Positions 16,775 to 62,133 of a stretch of DNA of 64,000 nt are shown here, piece after piece (positions within the stretch are counted from its first letter, which is position 1; every line of letters starts with the position of its first letter). A model generated the notes under the pieces. That model saw nothing but the letters and a program-made list of their open reading frames with translations. It searched no databases and was not told the DNA's origin. The position numbers were made by a program, and so were the translations under genes. Origin of the DNA: Malacoraja senta (Eukaryota); assembly GCA_038087875.1 (NCBI GenBank), contig CM075989.1, forward strand, positions 8,558,001 through 8,622,000. The letters run 5' to 3'.

Positions 16775-19316
16775 ATTTATTAGAAGTACATTACATCACA
16801 GCCACATACATTAATACTCGTCATTTATATCTTCTTACAATTAATGTACTCCCTTTATTTTTTTTTTACGCTAAAGAAAGAAAAGATTGAAAGAGAGAAG
16901 AAAGTGAAGGAAAAAGTGCAAGTGTAGAAAAGTGTAGAAAATGTAACAACAAAAAAAAAAAGGACGAGGACCCTATGAAAGCGAAATTAAAAACAAAAAA
17001 AAAAAGAGTTAAGAAATAGGCCCTAAGAAAAGAAAAGAGAGAGAGAAAAAAAAGAAAAACAAATGTTTTTTTTTTGAGCATCACGTAAATAGGACATACC
17101 AACTCTTCAACTATCATCCCCCCTTACCCGACCTCAATTTTTTATTTTTTTAAAGTACTTTTGCACCCTATGTTTGTAATAATTCTATAAATGCAGACCA
17201 CGTCAGGTGGAAGTGATCTGGTTTACCTGCTAGGAGGAGTCTTATCTCTTCAAGGTGTAGTGTTTCAAACATATTTGAAATCCACATATTTATAGTTGGT
17301 ATTGGAGCCTTCTTCCAAAATTTTAGAATTAGCTTTTTTCCAGTTATTAACCCATAATCCATTAATTTCTTTTGAAACACATTTAGTTCTGGATCATCTT
17401 CCGTTATTCCGAAGATAATCCATTCTGCTTTGGGTATCAGTCTTGTTTTAAATAACTTTGTAAAGATTTCAAAAATTTCATTCCAAAATTTTTGAATTTT
17501 TGTACAGAAGACAAATGAGTGCGCTATAGTTGCTTCTTGGGATTGACATTTATCACAAATAGATGATACGTTTGGGAAAATTTTATGAATTTTAGTTTTC
17601 GAATAATATAATCTATGTAAAATTTTAAATTGTATTAAAGTGTGTCTTACATTAATCGAGCATTTATGTACTTTTAATAAGTATTCATTCCAACTTTCCT
17701 TTGAAATTTTAATAGCTAACTCTTGTTCCCAGTCTCTTCTGATACCCTCCGTAGATGGTATTTGTACATTTAAGATAATATTGTACAAATATGATATTAA
17801 GTTTGCTGATTCCGCTTTTGTCTGCATTGCCTCGTCCAGTACATCTGCTGGGTTATTATGATGATCTTTTATATATTTTTTCAAATAGTCGCATATTTGA
17901 AAGTATTTAAAATATTGATTATTTCCGAGTTTATATTTTATTTGTAATTGTTGAAATGAAAGTAATTTTCCAGTTTCATACAAGTCACCAAGCGTTTTAA
18001 TTCCTAGTCTATCCCATTGTGTATAAGCTTTATCTATAATAGAAGGACTAAACGAAGGGTTATTGACTATAGGTAATAAAAGTGATAAGTTTCTTAATTT
18101 TAAATTTTGTTTTATTTGTTTCCAAATACGGATTGTACTATGAATAATTGGGTTCTTATTATAGTTTATGTTATTCAATTTCATTGGAGAGAGGAGGATC
18201 GCTCCAATGTTTCTAGAGGAGCAATCCTCTTTCTCCATTACAATCCAGTCTACTTGCTGGGCGGAGTTATCCATCAGTTGAATCATGTTTTTAATATTTA
18301 CTGACCAATAATAATACATAAAATTGGGTAGTGCTAGACCTCCCAATACTTTAGATTTATTCAGATGGGTTTTTTGTATTCTATGTGATTTATAGTCCCA
18401 TATAAAATTAGTGATATCTGAGTCGAGTTTTTTAAAAAACTTCTTAGGTAAGTATATAGGAATTGATTGAAATAGGTATAAAATTTGTGGTAAAAAGATC
18501 ATTTTTATTGCGTTTATTCGGCCTATTAAAGACATCGGAAGCGTTTTCCAGAATTTAATTAATGTATTCAGTTTATTAAGTAGGGGGTCAAAATTTGCCC
18601 TGAGCATACCTTGATATGCTCTGGTAATTTCGATTCCCAAATATTTAAATTTTTCTGTAGCTATTTTAAAAGGGAATTTTAAAAGATGTGTTGAATCTTT
18701 CGGTTTTATTGACATAATTTCACTTTTATTCCAATTTATTCTATATCCAGAAAAAGATCCGAAGTCTTCAATTAAATTTAATATATTTGGTATAGTGATT
18801 TGAGGTTTTGTAATATACAATAATATATCATCCGCGTATAAAGATATTTTATTATATGAGTCTTTAGTATTATATCCATGAATATCAGGGTGTATTCTAA
18901 TTTTTTCTGCTAGCGGTTCAATAATGAGAGCAAACAGCTGTGGTGATAATGAGCATCCTTGTCTATTTCCCCTTGATAGTTGAAATTTCGAGGATAATAT
19001 GTTATTAGTAAGTATTCTAGCTGTAGGTTTGTTATATAGTAACTTAATCCATAAAATAAAATTCTCTCCCAGTTGTTTCCTTCAATAAACTAGTTCACGG
19101 CACCCCTGCCATTGCGTACAGGACAACACTTTGTGTTTACATCCCGTAAACTATTTACTTTAGTTAGGTTTGTAAATGGGTGATAACTGATGATGTGTTA
19201 CCATTAAGTAAATGAATAATATTCTTTGTTATGAAAACTGTGGTTTTACATTTACTTTTGATTATTTGTTAATAGAGTACATTTTGAAATTAAAATAAGA
19301 GTTTTTTTTTTTTTTT
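16495..19316. repeat. ~231-bp direct duplication (16495-16725 = 19073-19303) flanking the L1
   Basis: The two copies read identical by eye at offset 2578. The right copy runs on into a T tract ending in TTTT/AA, an L1 endonuclease-type site. Confidence 0.93.
16727..19072 (-). mobile_element. 5'-truncated young L1-clade LINE (ORF2 RT C-terminal half, CCHC knuckle, 3'UTR, polyA)
   Basis: Frame is open from 19072 to 17168 and includes RGNRQGCSLSPQLF, YADD, FKYLG and CDKC...H....C. AATAAA is followed by about 40 A, and the element is flanked by a long direct duplication. Confidence 0.95.
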
Positions 19317-20294: not shown

Positions 20295-22239
20295 CTAGAG
20301 GAGATTGAACATATCACCAAGTTAGCTTCTGTTAGGACGTACTCACTGGAGATATCCTCAAGGGTATTATTAATCAGCCATAATCATCATTGCATTCAAT
20401 ATCTCACAGAGGGTTCTGCTAATCCCAATTAAATCGCTCAATCCACCCTTTGTTCCTCTACTTTTCCCACTGCCAACTTATTTTTGCTTTTTTTTTTTAA
20501 TTCGTTTTTTAGGATGCAAGAGTCACGGGGAAAACCTGCATATATTGCCCAATATTAAACGGAGCAACAGTCCAAATGGTAGAAATCAATCTGCAATAAA
20601 ATTGAAAGTAGTCCCTTTAATATCACTGGTTTGAAAGAGTGGTCAGAGAGTCACAAGGCACAGAAACAGCCCCTTCGGCCCAACTACTCCATGCCAACCA
20701 GTGGTGCGCGGTGGGGATGGAGGGATGTGTCTCCTTGTCCCCAAGCATTCAGAACAATGCATGAGTAAGTAGTGCCACTGGCTGGAGCTCCAAATTGGCT
20801 GTGCTGGCATCATTTCAGCACTACAGACTGATCAAGGTCAGCCCATATTTACAATGGGCATCAACTCACCCAGACTAATCCCCAAGAATATCCCACTAGT
20901 GGTAAATCACTCAACAAATATGAATTCTTCCTCTAGAAACTAACCGCACACACTTCTATTGCTGGTCCACAACACATGTGCTTTGAACCACAAAATGCCC
21001 CAGTAACAAATACAGAATTGATACCTCCAGGTCTGCTCTTTAAATAGTTATTTTAATGTTAGGCGTGACACATAGGCTATCTGATTTGAAAATCAGTTTT
21101 TAAATGTCTGCATTTAAAACTTCACAATTTCAGGATCAAATATCAGTTTGGCCTGTCCCACTTGGGCGTCATTTGCGCGTAATTTGCGCGACATCATTTA
21201 CGTGTCACGACGCACGACGCGCGCATTGTGACGCACACGTGATGCATGCATTACGCGCACATGGTGCGCGGTGCTGTAGGCAGTGACGCGCGGTCGCGCG
21301 CGGCGCCCCAGGATTTTGCGGTGTACAAAATCTTCGCGCGCCATCTGCGTGATGCGCAAATGACGCCCAAATGATGCCTTAACTCTACACGGCTCCACAT
21401 TAACCAACAAGAAGTCTCTGAATACACATAAGAGTGCAGGCCCTTCCTGTCAAAGACGTTTAAATATAATTAACTGTCAAAGTCAAACATAGCCTCTGGT
21501 TTACATTTAATTAATCAACCTATAGCAGAAGGCAATTAGAGATTGTGTATTCAAGGAGCAGCATGAAGCTCCTTAGCAAATTGCAATCAATCCTTCCTCC
21601 TTTCTGGTTTAATATGATGGTGAGGTTGGAGCACGATTCTGGTGGAACTGAGAGTGGATGCAATGAATTTACTACAAAAGGACAGAGTCAGTCGAGAAGG
21701 TAGCTGGCACAGCGGTACAGTTGCTGCTTTACAGCGCCAGAGACCCAGGTTCAATCCTGACTACAGCTTCTGTCTGTAGGGAGTTTGTAAGTTCTCCCCG
21801 TGACCTGCGTGGGTTTTCTCCGGGATCTCCGGTTTCCTCCCGCACTCCAAAGACATACAGGTTTGTAGGCTAATTGGCTTGGTAAAATTGTAAACTGTCT
21901 CTCGTGTGTGTAGGATAGCGTTAGTGTGCGGGAATCGCTGCTCGGCCTGAACTCGGTGGGCCGAAGACCCTGTTTCCATGGTGTATGTCTCAATTAAACT
22001 AAAGGGTCTGAGATGCAAGCCCAGTGCAGAGACAGGGATTCTCACGGAACTGTCACTTACAATGTGCTTGTTGTTCTTGTACTCAGGAGAGGAATAATTG
22101 ATCAATATTCCTGTGTCTGTGACCCTATGTGGGAATGATCTGGGGTTTGCTGCGTGACTTTCGGATATATAAGGAAACTGGAGCTTCTGGAGAAAACCTA
22201 CACAATGACAGGAGAATGTGCAGACTCCATTCAGAGTCC

Positions 22240-24153
22240 AGCAGAGGAGGACAAAGGGTTTAATTAGGAAAGGGAAAATAGATTATGAAAGAAAACTGGC
22301 AGGGAACATAAAAACGGACTGCAAAAGTTTTTATAGATATGTCAAGAGAAAAAGATTAGTCAAAACAAATGTAGGTCCCTTGCAGTTAGAAACAGGTGAA
22401 TTGATCATGGGGAACAAGGACATGGCAGACCAATTGAATAACTACTTTGGTTCTGTCTTCACTAAGGAAGACTTAATTAATCTGCCGGAAATAGCAGGGG
22501 ACCGGGGGTCAAATGAGATGGAGGAACTGAGTGAAATCCAGGTTAGCCAGGAAGTGGTGTTAGGTAAATTGAATGGATTAAACGCCGATAAATCCCCAGG
22601 GCCAGATAGGCTGCATCCCAGAGTACTTAAGGAAGTAGCCCCAGAAATAGTGGATGCATTCGTGATAATTTTTCAAAACTCTTTAGATTCTGGAGAAGTT
22701 CCTGATGATTGGAGGGTAGCTAATGTAACCCCACTTTTTAAAAAGGGAGGGAGAGAGAAAACGTGGAATTACAGACCAGTTAGTCTAACATCGGTAGTGG
22801 GGAAACTGCTAGAGTCAGTTATTAAAGATGGGATAGCAACACATTTGGAAAATGGTGAAATCATTGGACAAAGTCAGCATGGATTTATGAAAGGTAAATC
22901 ATGTCTGACGAATCTTATAGAATTTTTCGAGGATGTAACTAGTAGAGTAGATAAGGGAGAACCAGTGGATGTGTTATATCTGGACTTTCAGAAAGCTTTC
23001 GACAAGGTCCCACATAAGAGATTAATATAGTATAATTCAGTATTGATGTGGATATAGAACTGGCTGGCAGACAGGAAGCAAAGAGTAGGAGTAAACGGGT
23101 CCTTTTCAGAATGGCAGGCAGTGACTAGTGGGGTACCGCAAGGCTCAGTGTTGGGACCTCAGCTATTTACAATATATATTAATGATTTGGACGAGGGAAT
23201 TGAATGCAACATCTCCAAGTTTGCGGATGACACGAAGCTGGGGGGCAGTGTTAGCTGTGAGGAGGGTGCTAGGAGGCTGCAAGATGACTTGGATAGGCTG
23301 GGTGAGTGGGCAAATGTATGGCAGATGCAGTATAATGTGGATAAATGTGAGGTTATCCACTTTGGTGGCAAAAACAGGAAAGTAGACTATTACCTGAATG
23401 GTGGCCGATTAGGAAAAGGGGAGATGCAACGAGACCTGGGTGTCATGGTACACCAGTCATTGAAAGTGGGCATGCAGGTGCAGCAGGCAGTGAAGAAAGC
23501 GAATGCTATGTTAGTATTCATAGCAAAAGGATTTGAGTATAGGAGCAGGGAGGTTCTACTGCAGTTGTACAGGGTCTTGGTGAGACCACACCTGGAGTAT
23601 TGTGTACAATTTTGGTCTCCTAATCTGAGGAAGGACATTCTTGCCATAGAGGGAGCACAGAGAAGGTTCACCAGACTGATTCCTGGGATGTCAGGACTTT
23701 CATATGAGGAAAGACTGGATAGACTCGGCTTGTACTCGCTGGAATTTAGAAGACTGAGGGGGGATCTTATAGAAACTTACAAAATTCTTAAGGGGTTGGA
23801 CAGGCTAGATGCAGGAAGATTGTTCCCAATGTTGGGGGAGTCCAGAACAAGGGGTCACAGTTTAAGGATAAAGGGGAAATCTTTTAGGACTGAGATGAGA
23901 AGAACATTTTTTACACAGAGAGTGGTGAATCTCTGGAATTCTCTGCCACAGAATGTAGTTGGGGCCAGTTCATTGGCTATATTTAAGAGGAAGTTAGATG
24001 TGGCCCTTGTGGCTAAAGGGATCAGGGGGTATGGAGAGAAGGCAGGTACGGGATACTGAGTTGGTTGATCAGCCATGATCATATTGAATGGCGGTGCAGG
24101 CTCGAAGGGCCGAATGGCCTACTCCTGCACCTATTTTCTATGTTTCTATGTTT
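22240..24153 (+). mobile_element. 5'-truncated CR1 LINE (RT ORF2, disrupted near 23030)
   Basis: Motifs KSPGPD, NYRPVSLTS, YLDFQKAFDKV, GVPQGSVLGP, FADD and RTRGH; 3' tail (tttctatg)n. Confidence 0.95.
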
Positions 24154-33143: not shown

Positions 33144-35319
33144 GGGGAACAGGCAGGAAACAGGCAGAGATCAAGCTCAGATCAACCGTGACCTTATTGA
33201 ATGACTTGAGGCTGCCAGGACTAAATGGCACTTTTAATCAAAAAAAAGTATTGTTTCAAGTTAAACTTTATTTTAAATTTGTGCGTCTGAGCCCTCCTAT
33301 TGCCTCTGATCTTGTGACCTTCTATTTAGTTGGGTAACTGGAGAAGAGTCAGGAGTGGGAGGACTTCCTGACGTGATTTACTTTCCAAACATAAACTGGG
33401 CGCAATAGAAATGATCAACAGGAAGATAAGCCATGAGAGGATGCCAGATACAAACCAACTGCTTTATTTCGACTGTCACCTTCTCCAGGAAAAACTATTG
33501 TCAATGGGTTATGCTGTCGATCAAAAAAAAACTTAGATACAAATCCTTTAAACCAAGCAGCAGTTTGAAGTGAATATCCTACAGCTTTATAAGCTCGTAA
33601 TATATGGTGGTTCTTCTTTGATAATGTATGGGTCGATGTCTTTTGAAGCAGATGATTTGTCCCACGTTCTACATTTTGGAATAGACTCATCGGCAAGAGA
33701 TAAGGATTTGATTTCTGATTTCTGTATTTCTGTACAGAAACTTAATCATGAGGGCATAGATAAGGTGAATTGCCACAATATTTTCCCAGGGTAGGGGAGT
33801 CTTAAATGAGAGGGTAGAGGTTCCTGGGAGAGGGAAGATTTAAAAAGAACCCGAGTGGTAACGTTTTGCTGTTAGCCAAGAATTAGGCAATGGGATAAAG
33901 CCATTTTTGACTGACATGGACATTATAATCTTCATAAATTCATAAGTGGTAGGAGCAGATTTAGGCCATTCGGCCCATCCAGTCTACTCCACCAATCAAT
34001 CATGGCTGATCTATCGCTCCTAACCCCATCCTCCTGCCTTCTCCTCATAACCCCTGACACCCGTACTAATCAAGAATTTGTCTTGAATCTGCCTTAAAAA
34101 TATCCACTGACGGCCTCCGTAGCCTTCTGTGGAAATGAATTCCACAGATTCACCACCCTGTGGCTAAAGAACATCATCCTCATCTTCCTAAAGGAACATC
34201 CTTTAATTCTGAGCCAAGACCTCTGGTCCAAGACCCTCGGACTAGTGAAAACTTCTTCTGTGTTCGACGATTCTAAGGTTCTATGAAGAGAATGCCAAGC
34301 ATAGTCCACTATAATTTTGTATTTTCAGCTGCTGCAGTAATTTGCTTTCTAGATGTTGAGATTTTTTCCATGTGTGCTGCAGGAACAGAGTAACAAATGT
34401 AAAAAGATTAACTAATAAATCCAAAAAGAAATTTAGGAGAAACATCTAGAACCAGAAAAGAGTTAAAATGTGGAACTCGTGGACGGTGGAGTGACTGAGA
34501 TGAACAGCATGGATACATGTTCATGCAGCAGAGATGAGAAAGGAATTGAATGATGGCAGTGGATGGAGATGGTTTGGTGCAGGGACATGTGGAATATAAA
34601 AGCTAGACTGGCTGACATGTTACATTGCTGCATTTACCACATTAAGTTATTTACTAGCATGGTTATTGTATACAATGAGCACCCAAGAGACTTGGTAGGC
34701 CAACGCTTTCTCTCTTCATTTGATCTATTTTTCCACTTTCTTTTCGTTTTTCCATGTAGGTTGTTAGGGCTGTATCCATGCCCTCCGATGAAGGTTATCT
34801 ACAACTTGCAGTCATGCTGTATGTGAAATGAGTCTGACCTGCCCACTGCACTGCCTTAGTGAAGTGGATGCACTTTGCAGAAGTGGAATCGCCAAATGGA
34901 TATCTGACTGAAGACATGGCTCTCATTCAGGGTGTCAGACGAGGGTTTAAAGGAGGAACTTAAATGAAAGAAGAAAAGAAAAACTTAGGGAGGGATTTTC
35001 ATGGGATATTTGGAGAATCCTTTGATCAAATGATCGAACTTACAAAAATCTCTCATACATTAGCAAGTAGTAATAATGATAATATAATGATAACATATTT
35101 CATAGGATCCATTAATAACTGGATATTGAATATATTCTATGAATTTAATTGTGGATATTCCTAGAATGATCATTTACTGGTGAGAGAGTTACTGCGAGCA
35201 TTTGCTGAGTGGTATAATAGAAGCATTTAAGAGGCTTTTGGATAGGCATATGGATGTGCAGGGAATGGAGGGATATGAATTGTGTGCTGGCAGATAAGAG
35301 TTGGTCCCGGCATTATGTT

Positions 35320-35449
35320 GGGGTGTGAAATTGCAACCTTCATGTGGTCTGCCCTGTTTCGCCGAATGCAATCAACCTGGCGTGCACAATCAAATAGAAC
35401 AAGTTGTCCTACAAACTTTAGGCTGTGCACGCCATACGCAAGAAGAAGA
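35320..35449 (+). mobile_element. Second, more diverged copy of the HDV-ribozyme retroposon, inserted in an old CR1 tail
   Basis: Same 5' start (ggggtg), with P2, P3 and CGAA retained and an aagaagaag tail. TSD ggcattatgt at 35309-35318 and 35450-35459. Confidence 0.75.
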
Positions 35450-37630: not shown

Positions 37631-38963
37631 AAAGTGCCAACTTGAATCTGTTTCCACCACCGATTAGGCAGTTGTGTCCAGACCATGACAACGTCCTCTA
37701 TAAATCAAATTGCCACATCCCACTTTTAGAGCTGTTGCCAATTAAGCCGAATCTATTCCTTCAGGTTACTGATCCTGCTGCCAAAGTAAACAGTATTCAC
37801 TCTTCATGGTCTATCAAAATCTTCATTGATGTGTATGATCTGTGTAGTTCACGTTACACCAATTGGTTAAAAGGTCGTGTATGATTCAATCAAAGGCACG
37901 TGTCTGATAAGTCTTTTATTAGCGTACAGATCAATATCAGAAAAACAATGCTTCTCGCGCCTTCTTATCGAGTCCACACACACGATTAGAAGTTGTTCAG
38001 CCAGAGTTGAACACACTTCTCGGCATCTGCATACAATGGTGTCTGCCTTGCGCTTCTTGTGCTTCTTGGGCGTGGTGGTGGAAAGATTGGTGAAAACAGG
38101 GGCCGCGACGTGAACGCTCTTTCCTTGACCCCATGCTTCTCGCTATAAATCACATGTTCAGTTCCTCGGGTGTGAGGAACCACAAGGGCAGAGTTAACAT
38201 GATAGTGGGAAACGTGACTGTGGAGAAACGATCAAAGGTGGGCTTTGAAGCGGGCGTCATTTCCACTTCGCCAAATTTCAGACTTTATGGGCAGATACTA
38301 GAAATGTTGTGTTCTTGGAGATACTGAGGCGAGGATGAATTCTGTTCCTCCAGATAGAAATGGACCCGTGTTGGAAGGAACCGCAGATGCTGGTTTGCAC
38401 CGTAGACACAAAATGCTGGAGTAACTCAGCGGGACAAGCAGCATCTCTGGAGTGAAGGAATTCCTTCTTGTGTGGTTGTTTGGATTTAGGTTTATTATTG
38501 TCGCATGTACTGAGGTGCAGTGAAAAACTTTGTTTTGCATGCTATCCGATTGTGGAGGTAATTCTCTTGGACTGATTCTGAGCAGGGTCAGAGAGGAGCT
38601 CCCTCCCACCAACTGGCTTGGGTTTTCATCTGTTATTTCACCCCAAAGTTGTGGACCCTGATGGATAAATATTGCATTTCAGAATGTGACTGACTAGAAG
38701 GTACAGTTGGTTTATTTCTGTTTGACATTCACCTGTCAACATCTGATGTTCACCTGTAAAGCACATGAGGTAAGTCTTATAATAATCTGCATTAGATCTA
38801 TAGTCATTCGTCACAAAAGGAAGATATTCAGGCTATTGCGGAATGTGATGGAATCAAAGGTACACGTTCACCAAGAGATTTAAATGTTACTGTGCAGGTC
38901 AATACCAGAAAGACAGGAACACATCATGTTGGAATTCTAGACAGTCAGCTGTTTTTCTCTTTT

Positions 38964-58695: not shown

Positions 58696-61063
58696 TGTCA
58701 AAATTTGGAGATCAATTTGGAAATGGCTTATGATGTTTCTGAACCTAATTTAAAGAGTGAAAAACAGCAGAGTGGCTCTGCAGGTAATGCTTCCATCTCA
58801 CAGCTCCAGCGACCTGGGTTCAATCCTGACCTCATGTGACAGTTATGTAGATTTGCACATTCTCCAGGTGAATGCGAGAGTTTCAATGGTTGCTCTGGTT
58901 TCCTCCTACATCCAAACTATGTAGTGGTTGGTAGGTTAATTGACTAATATAAGTTATCGCACGTGTAGATGGGTGATAACAGAACTGGGAGTTATAAATG
59001 GGTATGTGAAAGAGCATAGGTTACAGAGAATTAATTGAAAGAATACATTAGTTTAGTTTAGAGATACAGCATGTGGCTTACCAAGTCCACACCAGCCATC
59101 GACCACCCTAATTCTGTATTATCCCACTTTCTCATCCACTCCCTACACATCAAGGGCATGTAGTTGTTTTACAGAGGCCAATTAACCTCCAAACCCACAC
59201 ATCTTTGGGATGCGAGAGAAAACCAGAGCACCTGGAGAAAATCTACGAGGTCACAGGAAATGTGTGTAAACTCCACACAGACAACACCCAAGGTCAGGAT
59301 CAAACCCAGGATTCTGGTGCTGAGAGGGAGCAACTCTACCAGAGGAAGGGTTTCGGCCCGAAACGTTACCTATTTCCTTCGCTCCATAGATGCTGCTGCA
59401 CCCGCTGAGTTTCTCCAGCATTTTTGTGTACCTACCAGTTGGGCTACTGTGCTGCCCTAAAGGGACTCGTGGAATTGCTCAAAGGATCAAAAACATTCGG
59501 TGAGCTAGCTTCCTTCCATGTTGTTAGAAAATATAAAATATGAAGATCTAAATCCAAGCATTTGTCAGCAGTGGGTAAGTTAGGAGCAGAATTATTCTCC
59601 AAACAAACCTTTTAATTCTTCAGTAGTGAAATTACTTGGGAAAGAATGCTTCAGAACAGCGGCAACACTATAAGAGCTTTGCAATGTCTGGTTGTCAGGA
59701 CAATGCTGCTACTGCTGTTATGGTATTTCTACCTCTCTTTTGTTCAATTCCACTATAGATGAAAGGAAAAAATATGATTTGTCAAAGAAATCACTAATGT
59801 CAGTGAGACTGAGGTTGGCAGAAGAAAAAACCCCAACCTGAACAAGCAATGTTTACAAGCATTACTGGTCATCAAGTGCTATGATTAAAAGCACCGTGGT
59901 TTTTTAAAATTTAGACTTTAGACTAAATTCATCTGGTAATTTCTCAAGTAAAAAAGGGTTACACCACAACAACAGGAGTTATATGATTTTAACCATTTTG
60001 ATCCATTATTATTCGGTTTTCATAATTTCTACTTATTAATTTGACAAGATGTTGTCATTCCCGTTGTTAATTGCCCATCCCTAATTGCTCGGAGAAGATG
60101 CTGGTGGGAGCAACTATCTTAAACTGCAGGTGTCTGTCTTCTGAACGTGCTCCCACAGTGCTGTAGGGGAGGGAGTTTTAGGATTTAGACTCTGTGACAA
60201 TGAGGGATCTGATGGTTAAATTAATGGATCGGCAACTGGAATTCTAGATTACCAATTAATGAACGATTTTGAAATCCCACCAAGGCAGGTGGAGAGTTTA
60301 AAGGTAGGAATTTAATCAAGATTTAAAAAAAGATTCAGTATTGGATTGTAAATTACCATCAAACCTATCAAGTTCATTAGTGTTTTGCTGTAAAGGATAG
60401 CCTACAGTACGTGCAACTCCAAAGATGCTGAAATTCTGAAATATAATCCGAAAATGCTGGAAACACTCAGACAGCATTTGGAGAAAGCTTAACAGAGATG
60501 TTGTTTCAGATTTAAGTCCTACTGGGAAAGAGAAAAAACACAAGTTAGATTTCTAAATTACAAAGGTGAGGGGATGGATAGGACACTGGCAATGTCTGAT
60601 AAGGTGCAGGGCAAGGGTTGAAGTTGTGGCAAGGTGTCAATGAGGCAATCTGGTTGATGCATTAATGAGGCCTGTTAGAGAGAGGAAAACTGAGCCTCAC
60701 ACTATCAGGGATATTTCCTTGTGTCCTATCCATCCCTCCCAGATCTTAACTTCAACTTAAAACATAAGGTGTTTTCTCCCTTTCCCAATTCTGACTAAAA
60801 GTCTTTTATCTGAAATGTTAGATCTGCTTCTTTTTCCCCAGATGCTTCCTGACCTGCTGAATGTGTCCAGCACTTTGTTTTTATTTCAATTAAAACAACT
60901 CCTTAGTTCTAGAACAACTAGGGATGGACAATAATTCCATGTCTCATCAATACACACAAAAAAGATAATTTCAGAATTAAAATGCTGCATGACTTGAGGG
61001 CAGTGAGGCTTTAACTAGTATCCCACTGGCACCAGTGCACCTTGCTCTGTCTCCAAACTTGCT

Positions 61064-61211
61064 TCTTCTTCTTCTTCTTCTTGCGTATGGCGTGCACAGC
61101 CTAAAGTTGTAGGACAACTTGTTCTATTTGATCTTATTTGATTGTGCACGCCAGGTTGATTGCATTCGTTGAAACAGGGCGGACCACGTGAAGGTTGCAA
61201 TCTTCCACCCC
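61064..61211 (-). mobile_element. Short non-autonomous retroposon with 5' HDV-like ribozyme and (AAG)n tail
   Basis: TSD tccaaacttgct (61052-61063) / tccaaatttgct (61212-61223); internal stem GGCGTGCACA/TGTGCACGCC; GAA-repeat tail. Confidence 0.8.
61158..61211 (-). ncRNA. Minimal HDV-like (CPEB3-type) self-cleaving ribozyme fold at the 5' end of a short retroelement
   Basis: Reads GGGGUGG(P1) AA GAUUGCA(P2) ACC(P3) UUCACGU(L3) GGU(P3') CCGCCCU(P1') G UUUCAA CGAA(J4/2) UGCAAUC(P2'). All elements are in HDV order, with a G1-U wobble. Confidence 0.8.
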
Positions 61212-61254
61212 TCCAAATTTGCTGCCATTTGCAAACTAGATATAAACTATCTAT

Positions 61255-62133
61255 GTGTTAAAGAAGGAACTGCAGATGCTGGAAAATCGAAGGTACACAA
61301 AAATGCTGGAGAAACTCAGCGGGTGCAGCAGCATCTATGGAGCGAAGGAAATAGGTAACGTTTCGGGCCGAAACCCTTCTTCAGACTGATAGGGGGTGGG
61401 GAGAAGAAAGGAAAAAAGGAAAAGGCGGAGGAGGAGCCCGAGGGCTGGGGGAGGGGAGGAGACAACCAGATGGCTGATGAAGGGGAGGGGACAGCCAGGG
61501 CTAGCAGAATTGGGAGAATTCAATGTTCAGGCCACCAGGATGTAGACTGCCCAAGCGGAATATGAGGTGCATTTCCTCCAATTTACGGTGTTGCTCGCTG
61601 TGGCCATGGAGGAGACCCAGGACAGAGAGGTCAGATACGGAATGGGAGGGGGAGTTGAAGTGCTGAGCCACCGGGAGTTCAGGTTGGTTATTGCGGACCG
61701 ACCGGAGGTGTTCGGCGAAACGATCGCCAAGCCTCCGCTTGGTCTCACCGATGTAGATCAGCTGGCATCTAGAGCAGCGAATGCAATAGATGAGGTTGGA
61801 GGAGATGCAGGTGAACCTCTGTCGCACCTGGAACGACTGCTTGGGTCCTTGAATGGAGTGGAGGGGGGATGTGAAGGGACAAGTGTTGCATCTCTTGCGG
61901 CTGCTCTAGATGCCAGCTGATCTACATCGGTGAGACCAAGCGGAGGCTTGGCGATCATTTCGCCGAACACCTCCGGTCGGTCCGCAATAACCTCCTCCGC
62001 CTTTTCCTTTTTTCCTTTCTTCTCCCCACCCCCTATCAGTCTGAAGAAGGGTTTCGGCCCGAAACGTTACCTATTTCCTTCGCTCCATAGATGCTGCTGC
62101 ACCCGCTGAGTTTCTCCAGCATTTTTGTGTACC
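61255..62133 (-). mobile_element. Penelope-like element fragment with GIY-YIG endonuclease and inverted pseudo-LTR
   Basis: ORF 61501-61827 reads LIYCIRCSRCQLIYIGETKRRLGDRFAEH. Segment 61901-62133 is an inverted copy of two internal parts. TSD tataaactatctat at 61241-61254 and 62134-62147. Confidence 0.9.
62041..62070 (+). ncRNA. Minimal hammerhead ribozyme core in a Penelope pseudo-LTR
   Basis: Reads CTGAAGA a GGGT-TTCG-GCCC GAAA CGTT. Stem III is palindromic (dimer-type) and stem I is weak. Confidence 0.6.

What the first reader, a model, noticed from the sequence alone, without database searches (positions are those of the whole stretch)
61052..61223. ~140-nt retroposon headed by a minimal HDV/CPEB3-like ribozyme (ribozyme-headed SINE)
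Seen: the minus strand at 61211-61158 folds into the HDV double pseudoknot: P1 GGGGUGG/CCGCCCU with a G1-U wobble, P2 GAUUGCA/UGCAAUC, P3 ACC/GGU, L3 UUCACGU and J4/2 CGAA, with P4 reduced to a few nucleotides. It is followed by a hairpin (GGCGUGCACA/UGUGCACGCC) and an (AAG)n tail, and flanked by a 12-bp TSD. A second copy (35320-35449) starts at the same G. There is no tRNA or 5S head. Known: HDV-like ribozymes define the 5' ends of R2, RTE and L1Tc elements. As I recall, the mammalian CPEB3 ribozyme has the same L3 (UUCACGU) and CGAA. Inference: this is a promoterless SINE-like family that cuts itself out of host transcripts and borrows a LINE (possibly RTE) reverse transcriptase. It could bear on the origin of vertebrate CPEB3-type ribozymes.
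Basis: partly seen in the sequence, partly recalled or inferred. Interest (0 to 1): 0.9.

Follow-up and report, generated by a model that had tools for sequence, protein, structure and literature searches.

The report
Ribozyme-headed short retroposon family
A short mobile element present in thousands of copies in this vertebrate-type genome begins exactly at the predicted cut site of a small self-cleaving RNA motif that closely resembles the mammalian CPEB3 ribozyme, which suggests how it frees itself from host transcripts and where that mammalian ribozyme may have come from.

Summary
On the minus strand, 61211-61158 carries every element of a P4-less HDV/CPEB3-type double pseudoknot. It is followed by a very stable hairpin domain, an (AAG)7 tail and an 11-12 bp target-site duplication (TSD). 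A decayed second copy lies at 35320-35449.

The element belongs to a young family of thousands of copies. A 30-mer at its 3' end has 2475 exact genome hits against 0 for the control. Of 20 copies chosen only by that 3' 30-mer, 18 reach within 1 nt of G1, and all 18 have TSDs.

The same genome holds further families with CPEB3-type heads:
- a second P4-less short element, with a copy in this window at 38132-37960 that passes Rfam's CPEB3 threshold;
- a 3.1-kb RTE-like LINE with a full-size head (61-64 bits), the same (AAG)n tail and TSDs.

Across 7 families P1, P2 and P3 covary: 12 of 19 pairs change on both sides, and 94% of cells are paired against 75% in shuffles.

Self-cleavage was not tested and no RNA ends could be read. 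The element has no pol III head, so it is SINE-like rather than a canonical SINE. Ribozyme-headed non-autonomous retroposons are already known (R2 SIDEs, NARTc). What looks new is a P4-less, high-copy vertebrate version and its sequence kinship to the mammalian CPEB3 ribozyme.

The parts
61212..61222 (-). 5' target-site duplication (GCAAATTTGGA; the next G, 61211, is both TSD and G1)
61158..61211 (-). P4-less HDV/CPEB3-type ribozyme head. P1 61211-05 with 61182-76; P2 61202-196 with 61164-58; P3 61195-93 with 61185-83; L3 61192-86; linker 61175-69; J4/2 CGAA 61168-65 with the putative catalytic C at 61168. The predicted cleavage is 5' of G61211.
61083..61157 (-). Body: long stem (arms 61152-43 and 61098-89) enclosing a small hairpin (61119-14 and 61110-05), then CATACGC.
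   Evidence: z = -5.08
61062..61082 (-). (AAG)7 tail
61051..61062 (-). 3' target-site duplication GCAAGTTTGGAG (its first G is shared with the tail)
35320..35449 (+). Older, decayed copy of the same family. TSD GGCATTATGT at 35309-18 and 35450-59, with an extra T at 35319.
37960..38132 (-). Copy of a second P4-less ribozyme-headed family (my label B). Its head is the only Rfam gathering-level hit in the window (CPEB3_ribozyme, 38080-38144, 43.7 bits). TSDs at 38133-44 and 37948-59.

Best explanation
The finding is one copy of a young, high-copy, promoterless non-autonomous non-LTR retroposon of about 150 nt.

Inferred mechanism, step by step:
1. A copy is transcribed as part of a longer host transcript.
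2. Its first 54 nt fold co-transcriptionally into a minimal, P4-less HDV/CPEB3-type double pseudoknot.
3. The ribozyme cuts the RNA 5' of G1. All of the ribozyme lies 3' of the cut, so it stays on the released RNA and is inherited by every new copy, whatever lies upstream.
4. The released RNA is copied by target-primed reverse transcription from its (AAG)n end, using the endonuclease and reverse transcriptase of an RTE-like LINE of the same genome. That LINE carries a full-size ribozyme of the same type and the same tail.
5. Integration leaves 7-14 bp TSDs.

Shown here: the anatomy, the copy number, the sharp 5' end at G1, the TSDs, the covariation of the helices between families, and the existence of the LINE.

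Inferred: the cleavage itself, read-through transcription, and which LINE supplies the enzyme.
For: 1. Motif. Every helix is perfect in the window copy, with 0 hits of the descriptor in 20 window shuffles and in the reversed 356,563 bases.

2. Family size and age.
- A 132-nt query gave 1366 first-look candidates. All 40 scored were 98-100% identical.
- The 3' 30-mer has 1261+1214 = 2475 exact hits against 0 for the control.
- The core TTCACGT-N5/6-CCCTGT has 7394 hits against 93 for the control. The first 100 listed are mostly this family and family B.

3. 5' end. In 20 copies taken in genome order from the 3' 30-mer hits, 15 start at position 1. One of these has a 6-nt duplication. Of the rest, 1 has T at position 1, 2 are one G short, and 2 are 5'-truncated. 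TSDs of 7-14 bp (median 12) are present in 18 of 18, and in 16 of 18 they end within -2 to +1 nt of G1. In contigs of four runs from four other coded organisms, depth falls more than 100-fold past 61211. Examples are 28,097 to 143 and 447,242 to 266. The loose ends there have no consensus (agreement 0.35-0.48).

4. Covariation. The alignment holds 10 heads of 7 families (A3).
- 94.1% of cells are paired, against 75.3 +/- 1.9 in shuffles (0 of 500 reach it).
- 12 of 19 pairs change on both sides (1 of 500 shuffles reach it).
- Slid controls give 39-49% paired.
- P2 is not part of the Rfam model that found most families, yet 6 of its 7 pairs change on both sides.
- Families A and B share L3, the linker GTTTC-N-A and C-N-AA. 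They differ compensatorily in 3 of 3 P3 pairs and 5 of 7 P2 pairs.

5. Sister families and the LINE.
- RF00622 on the genome gave 39 of 59 scored candidates over the cut-off, best 64.2 bits, and 0 of 14 control genomes.
- Four LINE copies share about 3.1 kb at 97% identity.
- Three of the four start at GGGGATC directly after a TSD, and all end in ...ACGAAAAGAAGAAG.
- The ORF has APE and RVT_1 domains.
- Relatives at 86% identity in metagenome contigs carry the same tail.

6. No pol III head.

7. Published knowledge.
- HDV-like ribozymes process the 5' ends of R2, RTE and L1Tc elements (passages in PMC6765202 and PMC7936874).
- P4-less HDV-like ribozymes are reported as functional (passage in PMC6326823 citing Riccitelli 2014).
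Against: - No cleavage assay and no RNA 5' ends. No listed run is on record as RNA, and only contigs could be laid.
- The finding's head reaches no Rfam threshold. There is no RF00622 hit even at E <= 10, and the only related hit is HDV-F-prausnitzii at 14.4 bits (gathering 44), E = 4.3.
- The nested MFE of the whole 150 nt is not unusual (z = -1.28, 22 of 200 shuffles as good).
- P1.1 is 2 bp and nearly invariant, so it gives no covariation information.
- All families begin with a G run, so the 5' ends alone do not exclude a fixed transcription start.
- The covariation rows were picked by me. A, B, C, D and G rows passed my perfect-pairing descriptor, and decayed copies were left out. This inflates the percentage paired, though not the between-family compensatory changes.
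- The element shares only the tail and about 12 nt with the LINE found. Its strong 3' hairpin has no counterpart in that LINE's 3' UTR (z = +1.25 and +0.52).
- The copy at 35320 is decayed and probably inactive.
Confidence: 0.8

Rival explanations
1. The element is a retroposon, but its 5' end is set by transcription initiation from an internal or hitch-hiked promoter. The conserved double-pseudoknot fold then serves another purpose, such as RNA stability, protein binding or translation or template handling, without self-cleavage. L1Tc's first 77 nt is described as acting as both promoter and ribozyme.
For: All families start with a G run. No cleavage or RNA-end data exist. The abstract of PMC3383444, seen in the search listing, describes Pr77 as both internal promoter and ribozyme. 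The A head is below all Rfam thresholds.
Against: The conserved features are exactly the catalytic ones:
- the G1-U wobble at the base of P1;
- a C at the J4/2 position in 9 of 10 aligned heads;
- an L3 identical to the CPEB3 consensus;
- compensatory changes in P1, P2 and P3.

Sister heads score 43-64 bits on a model built from a proven ribozyme. No pol III boxes or tRNA-like part were found.
Confidence: 0.1
2. The mechanism is the same, but the partner and origin differ. The short element would be an internally deleted derivative (SIDE-type) of an unsampled LINE subfamily with the same A-type head and 3' hairpin, or it would be mobilised by another LINE clade of this genome rather than by the RTE-like LINE found.
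For: Only the tail and about 12 nt are shared with the LINE found. The strong 3' hairpin is absent from that LINE's 3' UTR. R2 SIDEs arose by conjoining a 5' ribozyme to a LINE 3' end (abstract of PMC3414825). The window also holds L1-like and CR1/L2-like RT fragments.
Against: - I found no LINE with an A-type head. Of 73 places where the A-type P2' is followed by something other than the usual base, 12 share one other continuation. The one I fetched has no intact head and no ORF over 156 aa.
- The (AAG)n tail, the ACG-N-AAGAAG end and the TSD lengths match the RTE-like LINE.
Confidence: 0.09
3. The fold is a chance resemblance in an ordinary repeat or a truncated LINE tail.
For: The MFE z-score of the whole element is unremarkable. 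The Rfam score of this copy is insignificant.
Against: - The descriptor gave 0 hits in shuffles and in the reversed control, against 67 real hits.
- The helices covary.
- The 5' ends are not random: 18 of 20 are within 1 nt of G1.
- The body is unrelated to the LINE interior.
Confidence: 0.01

Closest known systems
HDV-like ribozyme-terminated non-LTR retrotransposons (R2, RTE, Baggins, L1Tc). Sources: Eickbush & Eickbush 2010, Ruminski et al. 2011 and Sanchez-Luque et al. 2011, known to me through passages in PMC6765202 and PMC7936874. The Ruminski paper itself is not held.
   Same: A ribozyme at the extreme 5' end, cleavage site = element start, promoterless co-transcription, and TPRT. The 3.1-kb LINE found here fits this kind directly.
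   Different: The finding is a roughly 150-nt non-coding element. Its ribozyme lacks P4, and it is in a vertebrate-type genome at thousands of copies.
R2 SIDEs and R2/R1 hybrid SIDEs of Drosophila (PMC3414825, abstract read)
   Same: Non-autonomous elements made of a 5' HDV-like ribozyme plus a LINE-recognised 3' end, moved by the LINE's TPRT machinery.
   Different: SIDEs are rare, site-specific (rDNA) and visibly internal deletions of the parent. Here the body has no similarity to the LINE found, insertion is dispersed, and copy number is in the thousands.
NARTc / SIDER elements with the Pr77 hallmark in trypanosomatids (PMC3383444 listing abstract; PMC4035085 abstract read)
   Same: Short non-autonomous partners of a LINE that keep its 5' HDV-like ribozyme. 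They are abundant and dispersed.
   Different: A different LINE clade (ingi/L1Tc). Pr77 is also a promoter. The hosts are protists. The ribozyme is not P4-less or CPEB3-like.
Mammalian CPEB3 ribozyme (Rfam RF00622)
   Same: Same L3 (UUCACGU), C-G-A-A in J4/2, the G1-U wobble, and CUGU after P1. Sister heads in this genome pass the model at 43-64 bits. By my own count on the alignment, one decayed copy (L066) matches the consensus at 52 of 61 aligned positions.
   Different: CPEB3 is a single-copy intronic element with a P4. The finding's head lacks P4, has different P1, P2 and P3 sequences, and does not score on RF00622.
Minimal HDV-like ribozymes lacking P4 (Riccitelli et al. 2014, through a passage in PMC6326823) and theta ribozymes of gut phages (PMC10879173, listing only)
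   Same: P4 is replaced by a short linker and the rest of the double pseudoknot is kept.
   Different: Those come from microbiome or phage sequences with no link to retroposons.
Ribozyme-bearing SINE-like elements with other ribozymes. Schistosome Sm-alpha hammerhead SINEs and retrozymes: passage in PMC6765202. Twister variants in S. mansoni non-LTR elements: PMC8501958, listing abstract.
   Same: A short non-autonomous retroelement that uses a self-cleaving motif to process its RNA.
   Different: Different ribozyme classes and, for some, pol III transcription or circular RNA intermediates.

Membership tests
HDV-like self-cleaving ribozymes | Nested double pseudoknot: P1, P2 and P3 in the canonical order and lengths | tested here: met
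   All pairs are perfect in the window copy. Covariation across 7 families: 12 of 19 pairs change on both sides, and 94.1% of cells are paired against 75.3% in shuffles.
HDV-like self-cleaving ribozymes | P1.1 (2 bp between L3 and the nucleotides after P1) | tested here: inconclusive
   A-C in L3 can pair with G-U after P1. 85% of cells are paired, but the pairs barely vary.
HDV-like self-cleaving ribozymes | G1-U wobble at the base of P1 and a catalytic C in J4/2 | tested here: met
   G61211 with U61176, and C61168 in CGAA. G-U is present in 6 of 7 rows that have letters at that pair. C is at the J4/2 position in 9 of 10 rows.
HDV-like self-cleaving ribozymes | P4 helix | tested here: not met
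   It is replaced by the 7-nt linker GTTTCAA (GTTTCGA in most copies). P4 is reported as dispensable in minimal forms (passage in PMC6326823).
HDV-like self-cleaving ribozymes | Site-specific self-cleavage 5' of G1 | not testable with these tools
   Indirect only: genomic copies begin at G1.
Rfam CPEB3_ribozyme (RF00622) | Score at or above the gathering threshold (35 bits) | tested here: not met
   Finding's copy: no hit at E <= 10. Decayed copy: none. It is met by family B in the window (43.7 bits) and by the LINE and other heads (43-64 bits).
SINE (canonical) | Internal pol III promoter from a tRNA, 7SL or 5S head | tested here: not met
   ARAGORN found 0 tRNAs. No Rfam tRNA, 5S or 7SL hit. 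No B-box match inside the elements (the motif was recalled).
SINE (canonical) | Short, non-coding, dispersed, with TSDs and a LINE-type 3' tail | tested here: met
   About 150 nt, 2475 exact 3' 30-mers, TSDs in 18 of 18 copies, and an (AAG)n tail as in the LINE.
SIDE-type internal deletion derivative | Body made of the parent LINE's own 5' and 3' sequence | tested here: not met
   Against the LINE found, only the tail and short core words match. Another parent is not excluded.
RTE clade (for the partner LINE) | About 3.2 kb, a single ORF with N-terminal APE and RT, short UTRs, and a microsatellite-like tail | tested here: met
   Homologues of 50-63% identity sit on contigs of about 3.1-3.4 kb from many animals.
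RTE clade (for the partner LINE) | Phylogenetic placement with named RTE references | not tested
   No named reference set is at hand. The RTE label rests on architecture.

The most novel reading that the evidence does not exclude
CPEB3-type ribozymes are primarily the 5'-processing module of one lineage of RTE-like LINEs and their short dependents. This lineage is spread among aquatic animals. A protein in the 90% cluster of an 87%-identical relative is named from a teleost, and relatives at 86% identity lie in metagenome contigs. On this reading the single intronic CPEB3 ribozyme of mammals is an exapted head of such an element. The P4-less heads would show that this module can be pared down to 54 nt and still drive families of thousands of copies.
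Probability: 0.5. Interest if true: 0.8.

Novelty: new variant of a known kind. Interest (0 to 1): 0.68.

Why it matters
If the head cleaves, this is a vertebrate-type genome in which a 54-nt ribozyme, rather than a pol III promoter, defines a retroposon family of thousands of copies. That would make it a natural library of thousands of minimal HDV-like ribozyme variants.

The sister heads match the mammalian CPEB3 model in sequence, not only in fold. This makes the origin of that ribozyme directly testable. It is so far described in the papers I could read as a mammalian intronic element of unknown origin.

I found no paper that links CPEB3-type ribozymes to RTE-like LINEs or short retroposons outside mammals. 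However, the key papers (Webb 2009, Ruminski 2011, Webb & Luptak 2011) are not held, and neither Dfam nor Repbase could be consulted, so prior description cannot be excluded.

Tried and rejected
- A 74-nt query from the 3' body found nothing, because very common words are skipped by the genome search. I used exact patterns instead.
- RNA evidence: no RNA holder is listed. The four runs laid are contigs and cannot show RNA starts.
- Metagenome relatives of the LINE (2 loci) are 5'-truncated or cut by the contig end, so their heads could not be read. Only their tails could.
- Search for a LINE with the A-type head. 73 places have the A-type P2' followed by another base. 12 of them share one other continuation. 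The one fetched (L105) has no intact head upstream and no frame over 156 aa.
- The window's own RT fragments (17168-19081, 22209-24059) are unrelated or only distantly related to the RTE-like ORF.
- The MFE of the whole element is not significant.
- The LINE 3' UTR shows no stable fold comparable to the element's hairpin.
- The published RTE insertion signature is a T stretch about 10 nt upstream of the TSD (PMC6007223 abstract). Here there is only weak T enrichment at -11/-12 (17 and 16 of 38). There is clearer T at -2/-1 (20 and 18 of 38) and A or G at +1/+2. This is partly forced by letting the TSD overlap the tail, so it is inconclusive.
- Earlier notes of this scan: nothing.
- Papers not held.
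Full report
**What is at the coordinates**

Read on the minus strand, the stretch from 61222 down to 61051 is a complete retroposon insertion. It consists of:
- an 11-bp TSD plus one ambiguous G (GCAAATTTGGA|G);
- a 54-nt head (61211-61158);
- a 75-nt body that folds into a long stem with an inner hairpin (-23.9 kcal/mol, z = -5.08, 0 of 200 shuffles as good);
- (AAG)7 at 61082-61062;
- the second TSD copy (GCAAGTTTGGAG, one mismatch).

- P1 GGGGUGG/CCGCCCU with a G1-U wobble;
- a 2-nt J1/2;
- P2 GAUUGCA/UGCAAUC;
- P3 ACC/GGU;
- L3 UUCACGU;
- GU after P1;
- a 7-nt linker in place of P4;
- CGAA before P2'.

A strict descriptor of my own (perfect helices, CPEB3-like L3, C-N-A before P2') hits the window twice and 20 shuffles of it never. 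It hits all held sequence (356,563 bases) 67 times and its reversal 0 times.

The copy at 35320-35449 is real but old. It is 87% identical, has a 10-nt deletion, and shows CpG decay in L3 and P1. It has a perfect 10-bp TSD. The window is CpG-depleted (CpG o/e 0.43, GpC 0.96).

**It is a large young family with a fixed 5' end**

The window lies in a 1.94-Gb assembly.
- A 132-nt query gave 1366 first-look candidates. All 40 scored were 98-100% identical.
- A 30-mer at the 3' end has 2475 exact hits and its backward control 0.

The first sample was biased, because its query began at G1. In it, 20 of the 24 loci that matched my anchor start GGGG. I therefore took the first 20 places of the 30-mer list, which are blind to the 5' end:
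- 15 start at position 1. One of these has a 6-nt duplication, and three have a substitution or 1-nt insertion in the first 10 nt.
- 1 has T at position 1.
- 2 are one G short.
- 2 are 5'-truncated, near positions 88 and 98.

All 18 long copies have TSDs of 7-14 bp (median 12). In 16 of them the TSD ends within -2 to +1 nt of G1.

Contigs of four runs from four other coded organisms cover 61090-61211 deeply and stop there. Depth falls from 28,097 to 143, 26,482 to 9.5, 1,434 to 5.9 and 447,242 to 266. There are 41, 26, 8 and 406 loose ends beyond 61211, with no consensus (agreement 0.35-0.48). This shows the family and its boundary in relatives. It says nothing about RNA, because all four runs are contigs and none is on record as RNA.

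**Sister families and covariation**

The only Rfam hit at gathering level in the window is CPEB3_ribozyme at 38080-38144 (43.7 bits, cut-off 35).

It heads a second short family (my label B):
- It is about 173 nt, here at 38132-37960.
- It has 1889 first-look candidates.
- It ends in GATAAG(AAG)n.
- In 13 of 19 analysed copies the TSD abuts G1, and in 3 more it ends 1 nt away.

B is also P4-less. It shares L3, the linker GUUUC-N-A and C-N-AA with the finding's family (A). It differs compensatorily in all 3 P3 pairs and 5 of 7 P2 pairs.

RF00622 run on the whole genome gave 39 of 59 scored candidates over the cut-off, best 64.2 bits, with 0 of 14 control genomes ringing. The tool's rough first-look count was 102,231. 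These hits fall into further families with full-size P4 (my labels C to F). My descriptor found one more type with L3 UCCUCGU (G, L027).

On a MAFFT alignment of 10 natural heads from the 7 families (A3), the named structure gives:
- 94.1% paired cells against 75.3 +/- 1.9 in shuffles (0 of 500 reach it);
- 12 of 19 pairs with changes on both sides (1 of 500 reach it);
- a covariation score of 0.608 against 0.223;
- 39-49% paired when partners are slid.

By helix, the pairs with both-side changes are P1 3 of 7, P2 6 of 7, P3 2 of 3 and P1.1 1 of 2. P2 is unpaired in the Rfam model, so its covariation is independent of how C to F were found.

Caveats on this test:
- I chose the rows. The A, B, C, D and G rows had passed my perfect-pairing descriptor.
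- Decayed or 5'-cut copies (L062, L063, L066, L068, L074, L075, L076) were left out.
- One row (F) is misaligned by one column in P1 and was counted as it stands.

**The LINE**

Family C is the 5' end of a LINE. Four copies share 3.11-3.15 kb at 96.8-97.3% identity.
- Three of the four begin GGGGATC directly after a TSD.
- All four end ...GACACGAAAAGAAGAAGA(A) or ...AAAGAAAAGAAGAAGAA, followed by the TSD.
- One of the four keeps a 940-residue open frame with Exo_endo_phos and RVT_1 domains.
- Homologues of 50-63% identity sit on contigs of about 3.1-3.4 kb from amphioxus, sea urchins, fishes, insects and a lizard.
- The 90% cluster of a relative that is 87% identical contains a protein named from a teleost.
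- Two metagenome contigs at 86% identity end in the same ...AACGAAAAGAAGAAG tail.

Its size, single APE+RT ORF and microsatellite tail fit the RTE clade. I did not place it on a tree with named references.

The short elements are not internal deletions of this LINE. Only the tail, about 12 nt before it and ribozyme-core words match. The LINE's 3' UTR has no stable fold like the element's hairpin. The partner assignment therefore rests on three things: the shared head type, the shared ACG-N-AAGAAG end, and similar TSDs.

**Mechanism**

The whole ribozyme lies 3' of its cleavage site and needs nothing upstream. A copy landing in any transcribed place can therefore release an RNA that starts at G1 and still carries the ribozyme. 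This explains the fixed 5' end with unrelated flanks and the lack of any pol III head. TPRT from the (AAG)n end by the LINE's enzymes explains the tail and the TSDs.

Insertion sites show T at -2/-1 (20 and 18 of 38) and A or G at the first TSD positions. This would fit priming on the AAG repeat, but my TSD routine allowed overlap with the tail, so I count it as weak.

Cleavage, read-through transcription and the identity of the helper are inferred.

**Comparison with what is known**

- HDV-like ribozymes at the 5' ends of R2, RTE, Baggins and L1Tc elements are established (passages in PMC6765202 and PMC7936874).
- Non-autonomous elements that keep such a head are known: R2 SIDEs (abstract of PMC3414825) and NARTc/SIDER (PMC3383444 listing abstract; PMC4035085 abstract).
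- One review passage says that LINEs and non-autonomous SINEs use hammerhead or HDV-like ribozymes in diverse metazoans (PMC6765202).
- P4-less HDV-like ribozymes are reported as functional (passage in PMC6326823).

So the kind is known. What I did not find in print is:
- a P4-less head driving families of thousands of copies in a vertebrate-type genome;
- short elements that are not deletion derivatives of the LINE;
- any link between CPEB3-type ribozymes and LINE or SINE-like elements outside mammals.

Webb 2009, Ruminski 2011 and Webb & Luptak 2011 are not held, and Dfam and Repbase could not be consulted, so prior description remains possible.

**The CPEB3 link**

The LINE head and families D to F align to the mammalian consensus over its full length. 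The match covers unpaired parts (AGAAGCGUUCACGUCGCG, CUGUCA, GCGAAU). In family E it also covers the P1, P2 and P4 sequences. By my own count on the printed alignment, L066 matches at 52 of 61 aligned positions. That is sequence kinship rather than fold convergence. The direction (retroposon head to CPEB3 intron) is inference.

**Verdict**

It is a new variant of a known kind, of good interest mainly for the minimal head at scale and for the CPEB3 origin question.

Noticed in passing
window 37960-38144 (-): A second ribozyme-headed short family (B). Its head is the only Rfam gathering-level hit in the window (CPEB3_ribozyme, 43.7 bits). The window copy has 4 C in P1' where most copies have 3. 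T at -1 in 14 of 20 copies comes from the target (TSD), not from the element.
   Followed up: yes
L081-L084 (G000 C1 and C5): A 3.1-kb RTE-like LINE with a full-size CPEB3-type ribozyme at its 5' end and an (AAG)n tail. A protein named from a teleost sits in the 90% cluster of a relative that is 87% identical. Relatives at 86% identity lie in metagenome contigs. This hints at horizontal spread.
   Followed up: partly
L027:439-526 (-): A different HDV-like candidate found only by my descriptor. It has L3 UCCUCGU, G1-C instead of G-U, an 8-bp P2, a long P4 and CCAA before P2'. It has no Rfam hit at gathering level. What it heads is unknown.
   Followed up: no
window 61256-61350 (-), also L094, L095: Another very abundant repeat (...CCAGCATCTGCAGTTCCTTCTTTAACA) lies 44 nt upstream of the finding. 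In the laid runs its depth is about ten times that of the finding's family. In one run many contigs join the finding's G1 to positions 61256-61264.
   Followed up: no
L105 (G000:C750) and 11 other small contigs: 12 places where the A-type J4/2 and P2' (GACGAATGCAATC) are followed by CACCGACTGTCCCATACGCGA instead of the usual body. The one fetched has no intact head and no long ORF. All 12 are on small unplaced contigs.
   Followed up: partly
L061 around 1384-1544: Partial head segments (GTAGAAGCGTTCACGTCGCGATC) are repeated two or three times just upstream of a LINE head, as if from template switching or repeated priming.
   Followed up: no
window 17168-19081 (-), 22209-24059 (+): RT fragments of other LINE clades. 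One has RVT_1 plus zf-RVT. The other is 32% identical to the RTE-like ORF over 155 residues. Neither is related to the finding.
   Followed up: partly
positions 61167 and 61170: In all four laid runs most copies have G where the window copy has A at element position 42. In two of the runs (X1, X5) about 45% of the depth has U instead of G at the second J4/2 position (CUAA instead of CGAA); in X22 the share is about 39% and in X7 about 13%.
   Followed up: no
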